From assembly GCF_963921235.1 (NCBI RefSeq), contig NC_086097.1, positions 12,400,001 to 12,464,000 on the forward strand: DNA of 64,000 bases. The letters run 5' to 3'. The notes below the pieces were generated by a model, which was given only the letters and a program-made list of their open reading frames with translations, searched no databases and was not told the origin of the DNA. Each line of letters opens with the position of its first letter. Within the stretch, counting starts at the first letter, position 1. This document shows positions 2,979-48,410 of this stretch, piece after piece. The DNA comes from Mobula hypostoma (Eukaryota). The translations under genes and the position numbers were made by a program.

Positions 2979-3402
2979 CTTTCACAAGAGGACCATAACC
3001 TTGGCACTTGGGTATGGAGGTTTGTGTGCCTCAAAGGCCCAGAGAGCTGTACTGGCTGGAGTCAGGGCTTTATGCTTTGGCTCTTGGTAGGATCACCCAT
3101 GCCAAACAGGTCAATGGGTAGAGGACAGACTAAGAGTTGTTCACTGGTCCTCCAGGCTTCGGGGTTCAGCTCAGGGCTAACAACCCTGACTGGTGAAACA
3201 AAATTGTTATGGAAACAGAAATGAAGAATCCTTCTACATCTGAGTGTAATAATATTCCTGGGTCTCCACCCGGGACTTCCATGACTGACTGTATGAAACC
3301 CAAGACGAAGTTACTGACATGATGAAGGAAGCCCTGAACACTGACCAAAATGGAGGACCTTCTTTGCTGTGGTAAACACCAGTGGTGTAATGGGCAGCAA
3401 GT
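2979..3402 (+). mobile_element. RTE-derived non-autonomous retroelement (family A, copy 1)
   Basis: 11-bp TSD AAATAGGCCAG (2968-2978, 3403-3413). Colinear with 47990-48410. RTE/Expander-like 5' region. Confidence 0.75.
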
Positions 3403-30340: not shown

Positions 30341-31491
30341 TGTCTCACACAAATTTTACTTTGATTTTGACTACTTTGACCTTGAGTTTTGTGTTTGCAT
30401 CTGCCATGGTATTAGCATTGGTTTATTATTGTCACACATACCAAGAATTGGCATCATAATATATATAACTAGCCTACTAGGCCGATAAGGAACTTCGCAC
30501 AACCATGCTATCCAGCACCGATACCATACTCGTGAAAATCTTTCCTCACCATGTGACTAGCATAGTGCAAATAAATAAGAAGTTCAAAAATAGAAAGAGG
30601 GGAAAGACATAAACTTACTATAAGTTACAAAATTAAATAAATAACGTACAAAACAGGGAATAATGAGTTAGAGTTAATGGGTTCATTGTAGATCATTCAG
30701 AAATTTGATGGTAGAGAAAAATCTTTCTCTGAATTGTTCCGTGTGGGTCCTCGTGCTCCATAGGTAATAATGAGTAGAGGGCACGTACTGGATGGAGAAA
30801 GTCCTTAGTGATTGATGCCACTTTCTTGCGGTACTATCTCTTGTCCTCGATGGTGGGAAGGATTATGCTAGCTGAGTCTCTGTGATCCTGCTCATTGGAA
30901 ACTCCATACCAGTCTGTGATGCATAAAATGTACAAAGTGTTACATAAATCCAAATCCCCCATCTTCTTTTGACACTGACAAACTGGTGTCACAACAGCAA
31001 CCTTGCACTCCACGTCAATAAAACCAAGGGATTGATTGTGGATCTCAGTAAGAGAAAGTCAAGGGAACACTTACCAGTCCTCATCGGGAGATCAGTAGTG
31101 GATGGGGTGAGCAGTTTTAAGTTCATGCATGTCAAAATCTCTGAAGATCTATTCTGGGCCCAACATTTTGATGCAATTACAAAGAAGGCATGACAATGGC
31201 TATATTTCATTAGGAGTTTAAGGAGACTCGTTGTGATACCAAAGACTTTAGCAAATTCCTACAGGTGTACCATGGAGAACATTCTAACAGATCATGTCAC
31301 CGGTTGGTAGGAAGAGGCCAGGATCAGAAAAAGCTGCAGAAAGTTGTAAATGGGGTCAGGTCCATCATGGGCACAAGCCTCCCCAGCACTGAGGACATCG
31401 TCAAAAGGTAATGCCTCAGGAAGTCTGCATCCATCATTAAGGACCCCTGTCACTCAGTACATGCGCTCTTCTCATTGCTATCATCAAGGAG

Positions 31492-31900
31492 CTTCTCCGT
31501 GGATTGTCACCTTGTTGTGGTGGGAAGCTTGTGTGGTCCTGTGATCCCGAAAGTGATGTCGTCTGGAGCTATGCTCCTGCTGGGGTCACCCATAGCGGTA
31601 AGGTTGAGGGTGAGGTCCCTGACAAAGAACAATCGAACCAAGACCTCAACGGTGGAACAGGCGGACGAAGTTACTTCAAACTCAACGGCTGTGAAGGCGG
31701 ATGAAAGCTGCAACAAGTCCATCAGCTCCAATCGTCGTGGTTTCCATGGTCGATTTGTGAAGTATCGCGTGCTTCTTGGAGTGCAACATCAAGTACACGT
31801 TAAACAAATACATGCACAGGCATCTTCACTCTGTGGGCCACTTCTTTGGAACGAAGACCATCATCCTCGACCTCGAGAGATAGCCACGACCGACGTCCGA
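31492..31900 (+). mobile_element. RTE/Expander-derived non-autonomous retroelement (family B)
   Basis: 10-bp TSD CATCAAGGAG (31482-91, 31901-10). 5' region gtcaccttg..gtggtgg...ggtcaccca resembles RTE 5' UTRs. Confidence 0.75.
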
Positions 31901-31971
31901 CATCAAGGAGGTGGTACAGGAGCCTGAAGACACAAACACTCAACATTTATGGAATAGCTTCTTCCCCTCTG

Positions 31972-32397
31972 CATTCTGCAAAATTCTTAGGCACATACAG
32001 TATGTCAAGTTGGGGTACATAAGACATTGGCACAGTACTATAGTATTTTCATGTATTGCTCTGATATGGGTCTCTATTGTGGTCTGAAAGTGCGAAGGGG
32101 ACAGGGAGAGGGTAATCATGGTTGTGAAAAGGGGAGAGCGGAGGGTGTGGGAAGCACCCCAGACTGACATTCTGTAATGGTCAATCAAACAATTGTCGGG
32201 AATCAAGTGACCTTGCCTGGAGTCTCAGAGCTGGGTGTGTCTCTGCCACTGCTTCCACGGCACTCCATCCCCAACATCCTTTCCCCAAAATCCCAGATTT
32301 ACAAGCTTGTTCTCTGCTCCACATTGACAGATATATTACTGTGCCAAATTCTATGGCACCCTAGCAAAATTTATGTGCCTAAGAATTCTGCACAATG
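31972..32397. mobile_element. MITE-like DNA element, uninterrupted copy of the 9613-11800 family
   Basis: 26-bp imperfect TIRs (31972-31997, 32372-32397). Core is the reverse complement of ~11310-11640. Confidence 0.7.
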
Positions 32398-47989: not shown

Positions 47990-48410
47990 CTTCCTAGAGG
48001 ACCACAACCTTGCCATGGTTTGGAGACTTATGTGTCTCAGTGACCCAGAGAGTTGTGTTGAGAGGAGTCAAAGTTTTATGCTTTGGTTCTTGGTAGGGTC
48101 ACCCATGCCAAATAGGTCAAAGGGTAGAGGTCAGATTATGAGTGGTCTACTGGATCTCCAGGTTTGGGGGTTCAGCTCAGGGCTAACAACCCTGACTGGT
48201 AAAACAAAATTGTTATGGAAACAGCAATGAAGAATCCTTCTACATCTGAGTGTGATGGTTTTCCTGAGTCTCCACCTGGGACTTGCATGACTGACAGTTG
48301 TGAAAATCGAGAGGAGGCTACTGACATGACGAAGGAAGCCCTGAACACCGCCAGAGTTGGGGGACCTTTATTGCTGCTGTAGATGCCCGTGGCGTAACGG
48401 GCAGTAATAC
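47990..48410 (+). mobile_element. RTE-derived non-autonomous retroelement (family A, copy 2)
   Basis: 9-bp TSD ATTATATTT (47981-89, 48411-19). Same ends as 2979-3402. Confidence 0.75.

What the first reader, a model, noticed from the sequence alone, without database searches (positions are those of the whole stretch)
31491..31640. HDV-like ribozyme fold begins exactly at the 5' end of an RTE-derived short element
Seen: the TSD-bounded element opens with GCUUCUC (the G is shared with the TSD), which pairs 7/7 with GGGAAGC. Between them lie GGAUUGU (pairing with ACAAUC near 31629) and ACC-UUGUUGU-GGU. A GAC-AAAG segment precedes the P2 partner. This is the nested P1/P2/P3/L3/long-P4/J4-2 order of HDV-like ribozymes. 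Known: HDV-like ribozymes process the 5' ends of R2 and some RTE retrotransposons. Inference: this is a non-autonomous element whose 5' end is set by self-cleavage rather than by a Pol III promoter. Caveat: L3 lacks the canonical UCC, and P1.1 would be wobble-only.
Basis: partly seen in the sequence, partly recalled or inferred. Interest (0 to 1): 0.72.

Follow-up and report, generated by a model that had tools for sequence, protein, structure and literature searches.

The report
Ribozyme-headed mini RTE retrotransposon copy
This is a worn copy of an abundant 410-base jumping element cut down from an RTE-type retrotransposon; its first 145 bases are predicted to fold into a hepatitis-delta-type self-cutting RNA that likely frees the element from host transcripts, a known strategy, here with two core base pairs turned the other way round.

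Summary
The insert is 31492-31900, with TSD CATCAAGGAG. G31491 is target DNA (G at -1 in 5 of 53 copies). The family (2,802 search candidates, about 4% from its majority) starts at C: 36 of 51 copies found by their 3' end begin exactly there. Family fold: P1 CUUCUCC/GGAGAAG, L3 UUGUCGU, one inverted G-C P1.1 pair, J4/2 CAAA. Four related RTE families keep it with compensatory changes at 4 of 7 P1 pairs, 7 of 7 P2 pairs (hand-set register) and P1.1 (G-C to A-U). The first 340 nt match the 5' UTR of a full-length RTE in this genome; the parent of the 3' tail was not found. This copy is damaged in P1, L3 and P2. Cleavage is untested, Rfam gives no match, and an internal promoter is not excluded. 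Ribozyme-headed two-part non-autonomous LINEs are in print (R2 SIDE, NARTc; Kojima 2018 for RTE), and this scan found the kind before on other DNA (60 findings, at least 12 genomes). New member of a known kind.

The parts
31482..31491 (+).
   Evidence: -1 base random across copies
31492..31900 (+). Whole short element (family A), 409 nt in this copy, about 410-420 nt in others; no RT or endonuclease coding
31492..31498 (+). P1 5' strand CUUCUCC; predicted cleavage immediately 5' of C31492
31501..31507 (+). P2 5' strand GGAUUGU, after a 2-nt J1/2 (31499-31500)
31509..31521 (+). P3 (ACC/GGU) and L3 (31512-31518); L3 is UUGUCGU in the family, C changed to U at 31516 in this copy; G31514 is the P1.1 partner
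31522..31527 (+). P1 3' strand, 6 nt here (one A lost) against GGAGAAG in the family
31528..31529 (+). J1/4 (C-U); C31528 is predicted to pair with G31514 as the single P1.1 pair
   Evidence: G-C in families A-D, A-U in family E
31530..31622 (+). Long branched P4 (93 nt) with four helices that covary between families
   Evidence: helices 5-8
31623..31626 (+). J4/2 C-A-A-A; C31623 is the predicted catalytic cytosine
   Evidence: C in 52 of 53 copies; C-N-A-A in all five families
31629..31635 (+). P2 3' strand, ACAAUCC in the family, last C changed to G in this copy
31636..31828 (+). Rest of the RTE 5'-UTR-derived part (this copy has a 16-nt deletion after 31746)
   Evidence: aligns to the 5' UTR of full-length RTE L275
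31829..31900 (+). 3' tail: short stem-loop (31865-31878) and degenerate (GAC)n; RTE-like in layout, parent LINE not found
31901..31910 (+). Right target-site duplication
30951..31975 (+). Host repeat interrupted by the insert: a decayed LINE 3' end (Rex1/Babar-like by recall; Pfam gave no hit)
   Evidence: empty-site form matches other window copies across the junction

Best explanation
[quoted passage not shown] Shown: TSD, copy family, sharp 5' end at P1 base 1, homology to a full-length RTE, covariation of the fold. Inferred: source copies are read through by host Pol II transcription (or from an internal promoter); P1 and P3 fold first, P2 and the single G-C P1.1 close the double pseudoknot, C31623 acts as the catalytic cytosine; the 3' stem-loop and (GAC)n tail recruit an RTE protein in trans for target-primed reverse transcription. 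This particular copy is probably weak or dead (6-bp P1, L3 C lost, P2 end broken, and G at -1 able to capture the P1.1 cytosine).
For: 5' ends: 36 of 51 distinct copies found by the 3' end start at +1, 5 at +2/+3, 10 are scattered truncations; 18 of 20 aligned copies of autonomous family E also start at P1 base 1. Covariation: family majorities pair in 35 of 35 P1 cells and 35 of 35 P2 cells, with both-side changes at 4 of 7 and 7 of 7 positions, and P1.1 G-C to A-U; on a MAFFT alignment of 12 natural copies 91.6% of 440 cells pair against 35-56% for slid partners. Families D and E were reached through RTE protein homology, not through a ribozyme pattern. Core residues match the published descriptor in L3 (U..CG) and J4/2 (CRRA) (PMC6326823, passages). 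RTE origin: element positions 1-349 align to the 5' UTR of a full-length RTE (L275; BLAST 72% over 11-219). No tRNA or strict Pol III box. TSDs of 10-15 nt in 18 of 30 copies. Precedent: active ribozymes that start with C in trypanosomatid elements (PMC4035085, passages), and in non-autonomous NARTc and R2 SIDEs.
Against: No cleavage or RNA-end data. Two fixed features of the canonical descriptor are not met: G1-Y (here C1-G) and C-G pairs in P1.1 (here one inverted pair). No Rfam ribozyme model reaches significance (best was drz-agam-1 at E 5.2 on a family E copy). J1/2 is only 2 nt, and 0-1 nt spacers gave no or little activity in the Agam-2-1 background (PMC4908430, Results). The P1.1 covariation is a single event. 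Family E has U-U at one P3 pair and family D a 9-nt L3. Only 26 of 53 family A copies pass the strict descriptor. No LINE bearing the family A tail was found among 60 tail-anchored loci or 30 RTE 3' ends.
Confidence: 0.76

Rival explanations
1. An internal Pol II promoter sets the 5' end at +1, and the conserved HDV-like fold serves mainly another role (protecting the RNA end, being bound by the RTE protein, or translation in the parent), cutting little or not at all.
For: In L1Tc the same 77 nt are both promoter and ribozyme and give the same +1 (PMC3185411, Discussion part 1). All five families start with C in a pyrimidine run, which resembles a TCT-type initiator (recalled, not tested). Short J1/2 and non-canonical C1-G may lower activity.
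Against: The catalytic-site pattern (L3 U and G, J4/2 C-N-A-A) is kept in all five families while the helices change, which a promoter or a merely protective fold does not need. The two roles can also coexist.
Confidence: 0.15
2. The ribozyme worked in the autonomous RTE ancestor but is only a passenger in the short family, whose RNA end is set otherwise.
For: The short family inherited its whole 5' part from an RTE UTR; half the copies are damaged.
Against: The family A majority is intact in every core helix although it is only about 72-77% identical to family B and L275, and it differs from B by a compensatory P2 change. Damage in copies is the expected neutral decay after insertion.
Confidence: 0.06
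3. It is an ordinary Pol III SINE, or the fold is a chance arrangement.
For: Folding z-score 0.42; no Rfam hit; four one-mismatch A-box-like strings.
Against: No tRNA, no strict A box and no B box even with one mismatch; head is RTE 5' UTR; 0 of 3000 shuffles pass the descriptor; covariation.
Confidence: 0.03

Closest known systems
Bipartite ORF-absent non-autonomous RTE LINEs (RTESINE1/2, Bov-A unit, RTE-N2_Lch; Kojima 2018, PMC5786205; parts 1-2 of 5, section 23 and passages read)
   Same: 5' UTR plus 3' end of RTE, no ORF, no small-RNA head; the paper says such elements usually keep the LINE's 5' end and suggests the ribozyme as the cause.
   Different: The paper gives no fold for them in the text read; here the tail does not match the RTE lineage that supplied the head, so it may be a tail exchange.
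HDV-like ribozymes at RTE 5' ends (Ruminski et al. 2011; not held; known here only through PMC6765202, PMC5786205 and PMC3774820 passages)
   Same: Same element clade, cleavage site coinciding with the 5' junction.
   Different: Could not check whether the C1-G pair, inverted P1.1 or the long branched P4 were already drawn there.
L1Tc/NARTc and SIDER ribozymes of trypanosomatids (PMC3185411 passages and Discussion part 1; PMC4035085 passages and section 5; PMC3383444 passages)
   Same: Ribozyme starts with C at element +1, single-pair P1.1, shared by autonomous and non-autonomous elements, shown to cleave; G at -1 extends P1 and disrupts P1.1, as the window copy would.
   Different: Ingi clade, 77-nt compact ribozyme with promoter activity; here RTE clade, 145 nt with a 93-nt P4, activity untested.
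[quoted passage not shown]
   Same: Ribozyme head plus LINE tail, non-coding, head and tail can come from different elements, shown to cleave.
   Different: They insert at fixed 28S rDNA sites and are rare; this family is dispersed over many contigs in thousands of copies.

Membership tests
HDV-like ribozyme | Nested double pseudoknot P1, P2, P3, P1.1, P4 in the HDV order | tested here: met
HDV-like ribozyme | 6-7 bp P1 whose first base is the cleavage site and the element's 5' end | tested here: met
   P1 7 bp in five families; 36 of 51 copies start there; the cut itself is inferred
HDV-like ribozyme | First pair G1-Y (canonical descriptor, PMC6326823) | tested here: not met
   C1-G in all five family majorities; active C1 ribozymes exist in trypanosomatids, so this is not a family-wide requirement
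HDV-like ribozyme | P1.1 of C-G pairs, C in L3 (canonical descriptor) | tested here: not met
   One inverted pair, G-C in A-D and A-U in E, plus U-U; PMC4035085 notes variable P1.1 bases
HDV-like ribozyme | L3 U...C-G with U-G reverse wobble | tested here: met
   U 51, C 45, G 48 of 53 copies; window copy has lost the C
HDV-like ribozyme | J4/2 C-R-R-A with catalytic C | tested here: met
   CAAA in family A, C in 52 of 53; CAAA, CAAA, CUAA, CGAA in B-E
HDV-like ribozyme | Match to an Rfam HDV-clan model | tested here: not met
HDV-like ribozyme | Mg-dependent self-cleavage leaving 5'-OH | not testable with these tools
   needs a bench assay
Bipartite non-autonomous RTE LINE | 5' part is the extreme 5' end of an RTE LINE | tested here: met
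   L275; relatives upstream of an endonuclease frame; Pfam E 0.0086, below cut-off
Bipartite non-autonomous RTE LINE | 3' part is the 3' end of an RTE LINE | tested here: inconclusive
   Met for sister family B; for family A only the layout fits, parent not found
Bipartite non-autonomous RTE LINE | No RT/endonuclease ORF; TSD; microsatellite tail; 5' truncated copies | tested here: met
Pol III SINE (tRNA, 5S or 7SL head) | Small-RNA-derived head with A and B boxes | tested here: not met
R2 SIDE | Site-specific insertion in 28S rDNA | tested here: not met
   unrelated flanks on many contigs

The most novel reading that the evidence does not exclude
Vertebrate RTE retrotransposons and their miniatures carry an active, so far undescribed subclass of HDV-like ribozyme (C1-G first pair, one purine-first P1.1 pair that flips between G-C and A-U, 2-nt J1/2, branched P4 of about 95 nt) that canonical descriptors and Rfam miss, and family A is a head-tail hybrid in which this ribozyme leader was joined to the tail of a different RTE lineage.
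Probability: 0.3. Interest if true: 0.5.

Novelty: new member of a known kind. Interest (0 to 1): 0.3.

Why it matters
It gives direct comparative support for a suggestion in print (Kojima 2018) that two-part RTE miniatures keep their exact 5' end because a ribozyme makes it, and it supplies natural compensatory variants for testing how far the HDV fold tolerates an inverted first pair and an inverted P1.1. With about half of the sampled copies still intact, a thousand or more potential self-cleavage sites may lie in this genome's introns and could affect host transcripts (inference). The concept itself is known, and the scan has met it many times.

Tried and rejected
Free-energy folding of the window stretch: z 0.42, uninformative for a pseudoknot; nested folding of the family majority recovers P2 and P3 but not P1 (probability 0.001), while the first 45 nt alone fold into P1 and P3. 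Rfam: nothing significant. 'End-joining helix' between head and tail, a lead from earlier scan notes: hairpins can be drawn across the junction in A and B (16 of 200 shuffles as good for A), but the duplexes are no better than shuffled tails (634 and 696 of 2000) or than other windows (52 of 65, 24 of 41); not supported here. Search for the LINE that carries the family A tail: none among 60 tail-anchored loci, 40 RTE loci from two protein queries or 30 from a third; these are only top hits, so absence is not shown. Expression: two runs guessed to be RNA hold the element as contigs, but contigs show no ends, strand or level, and the flank laid was itself a repeat; no evidence either way. Pattern scans: viral contigs 0; prokaryote genomes 1 match that did not align to the element, taken as chance. 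G depletion at -1 (P 0.03 against flank composition) is more simply a target-site bias and was not used. Pfam did not name the host repeat. Ruminski 2011 could not be read, so whether the inverted pairs are already published for RTE stays open; supplements of the papers were not opened and their figures are not held.

Full report
Observation. The insert is bounded by a 10-nt duplication, CATCAAGGAG at 31482-31491 and 31901-31910, and interrupts a decayed LINE 3' end whose uninterrupted form matches other places in the window across the junction. The window lies in a 3.48-Gb genome; its repeats look like those of a shark or ray, which is recall and comes from no call.

Family. A search of the own genome gave 2,802 candidates, 40 scored, at 88-91% identity. 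Thirty aligned copies are on average 3.8% from their majority, the window copy 6.9% (these are top hits, so biased to well-kept copies). They end in a short stem-loop and (GAC)n, and 18 of 30 have TSDs of 10-15 nt allowing one mismatch. Sixteen public runs from seven coded organisms hold half or more of its words.

5' end. To avoid bias from a full-length query I searched with the last 101 and 61 bases. Of 60 loci, 51 are distinct after removing duplicates and the window copy: 36 start at +1, 5 at +2 or +3, and 10 are truncated at scattered places. Position +1 is C31492. The base before it is A 20, T 20, C 8, G 5 of 53 copies. So G31491 is target DNA.

Corrected fold. In the family majority: P1 CUUCUCC/GGAGAAG, J1/2 GU, P2 GGAUUGU/ACAAUCC, P3 ACC/GGU, L3 UUGUCGU, J1/4 CU, P4 93 nt, J4/2 CAAA. 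The third base of L3 (G) faces the first base of J1/4 (C), giving one Watson-Crick P1.1 pair in inverted orientation next to U-U. The window copy has lost one A in the P1 3' strand, the L3 C (31516) and the last P2 pair (31635). The L1Tc paper describes the same thing: a G at -1 extends P1 and disrupts the single P1.1 pair (PMC3185411, Discussion part 1).

Relatives. Family B: an older short family in the same genome (13 copies from a pattern search, 16 from a 3'-anchored search). Family C: 8 metagenome matches, 4 distinct loci since 5 share one flank, two of them showing RTE-type endonuclease or C-terminal frames used as later queries. Family D: 11 leaders among 20 loci found with an RTE endonuclease query (one more candidate was dropped as too decayed). 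Family E: a younger autonomous family reached from one of those loci, 25 matches, 20 aligned, 18 used; all 18 start at P1 base 1, the two left out have altered 5' ends. The patterns that found C and part of B fix P3, part of L3 and J4/2, so those positions are not independent there; D and E are free of that bias.

Covariation. With the register set by hand on the five majorities, 35 of 35 P1 cells and 35 of 35 P2 cells pair; both sides change at 4 of 7 P1 and 7 of 7 P2 positions; P1.1 is G-C in A-D and A-U in E; P3 is invariant except U-U in E; D has a 9-nt L3. On an unedited MAFFT alignment of 12 natural copies, 91.6% of 440 cells pair, 21 of 37 pairs change on both sides (shuffle mean 11.7, 0 of 500 as high), and slid partners pair at 35-56%. 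P2 scores only 81% there because MAFFT shifts the three E rows by one column. Relatedness inflates the shuffle test, and the P1.1 change is one event. A descriptor written from family A accepts the majorities of A, B, C strictly and D, E with relaxed P3/L3, 26 of 53 A copies strictly, and 0 of 3000 shuffles. Rfam finds nothing significant.

Origin. A full-length RTE of about 4.5 kb (L275, G000:C40) starts with the same leader; element positions 1-349 align to its 5' UTR (BLAST 72% over 11-219), and its 3' end matches the tail of family B. B is therefore a plain head-plus-tail deletion product of this lineage, its tail holding the last codons of the ORF. Family A shares the head but has a different 70-nt tail that did not align to L275; no LINE with that tail was found. 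Tail exchange is the simplest reading (inference). No tRNA, no strict A box and no B box.

Mechanism. Shown: boundaries, copy family, end at P1 base 1, RTE homology, conserved fold. Inferred: read-through or internally started Pol II RNA self-cleaves before C1; an RTE protein acting in trans binds the tail and reverse-transcribes the RNA at a nicked target, giving TSDs, full-length copies with one 5' end and some truncated ones. Against: cleavage is untested; C1-G and the inverted P1.1 depart from the canonical descriptor (PMC6326823, passages); J1/2 is 2 nt, and very short spacers cut poorly in one tested background (PMC4908430, Results); L1Tc shows that a promoter can give the same +1. Active ribozymes with C1 and variable P1.1 are known (PMC4035085, passages), and R2 ribozymes keep little beyond the catalytic C and four other positions (PMC3774820, section 16).

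Comparison and novelty. Ribozymes at RTE 5' ends are reported (PMC6765202 passages; PMC3774820 passage). Kojima 2018 describes bipartite non-autonomous RTEs and proposes the ribozyme as the reason they keep the 5' end. NARTc and R2 SIDEs are non-autonomous elements with tested ribozymes. Eight searches of the open library listed no paper whose title or abstract start deals with this family or with an inverted P1.1 in RTE, but the key paper (Ruminski 2011) is not held, figures and supplements were not seen, and Repbase was not available. The scan's own notes hold 60 similar findings in at least 12 genomes, several in this genome on other families; a sequence look-up for this element found none. 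Their head-tail helix idea was tested here and not supported. Verdict: real feature, reading essentially right after a one-base correction, new member of a known kind, interest 0.3.

Noticed in passing
window 2980-3300 and 47990-48300 (+): Two more decayed ribozyme-type RTE leaders, resembling family D, lie in this window.
   Followed up: partly
L113:2222-2394 (-), L116, L118: Family D leaders have a 9-nt L3 (two extra bases) in the simplest parse, otherwise the same core.
   Followed up: partly
L171-L188: A young autonomous RTE family (E, about 25 matches, mostly 89-95% identical to the query copy) with A-U P1.1, U-U at the base of P3 and very sharp 5' ends; a good construct for a cleavage test.
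   Followed up: partly
L275:554-5000 (G000:C40:88998000-89003300): Decayed full-length RTE LINE of about 4.5 kb, parent lineage of short family B.
   Followed up: yes
L062:1608-2581: Metagenome RTE copy in which the C-terminal reading frame begins about 480 nt after the ribozyme core, so probably an internally deleted element.
   Followed up: no
window 31555-31815: The family A majority has one open frame of about 90 codons from an ATG inside P4; no RTE protein similarity and a stop in the matching part of family B, so probably chance.
   Followed up: partly
window 31972-32042 and 32332-32397: Two inverted-repeat pairs (33 nt at 85%, 30 nt at 77%) enclosing about 290-360 nt, like a small DNA-transposon remnant.
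   Followed up: no
L232: A family A copy whose 3' part lies inverted relative to its 5' part.
   Followed up: no
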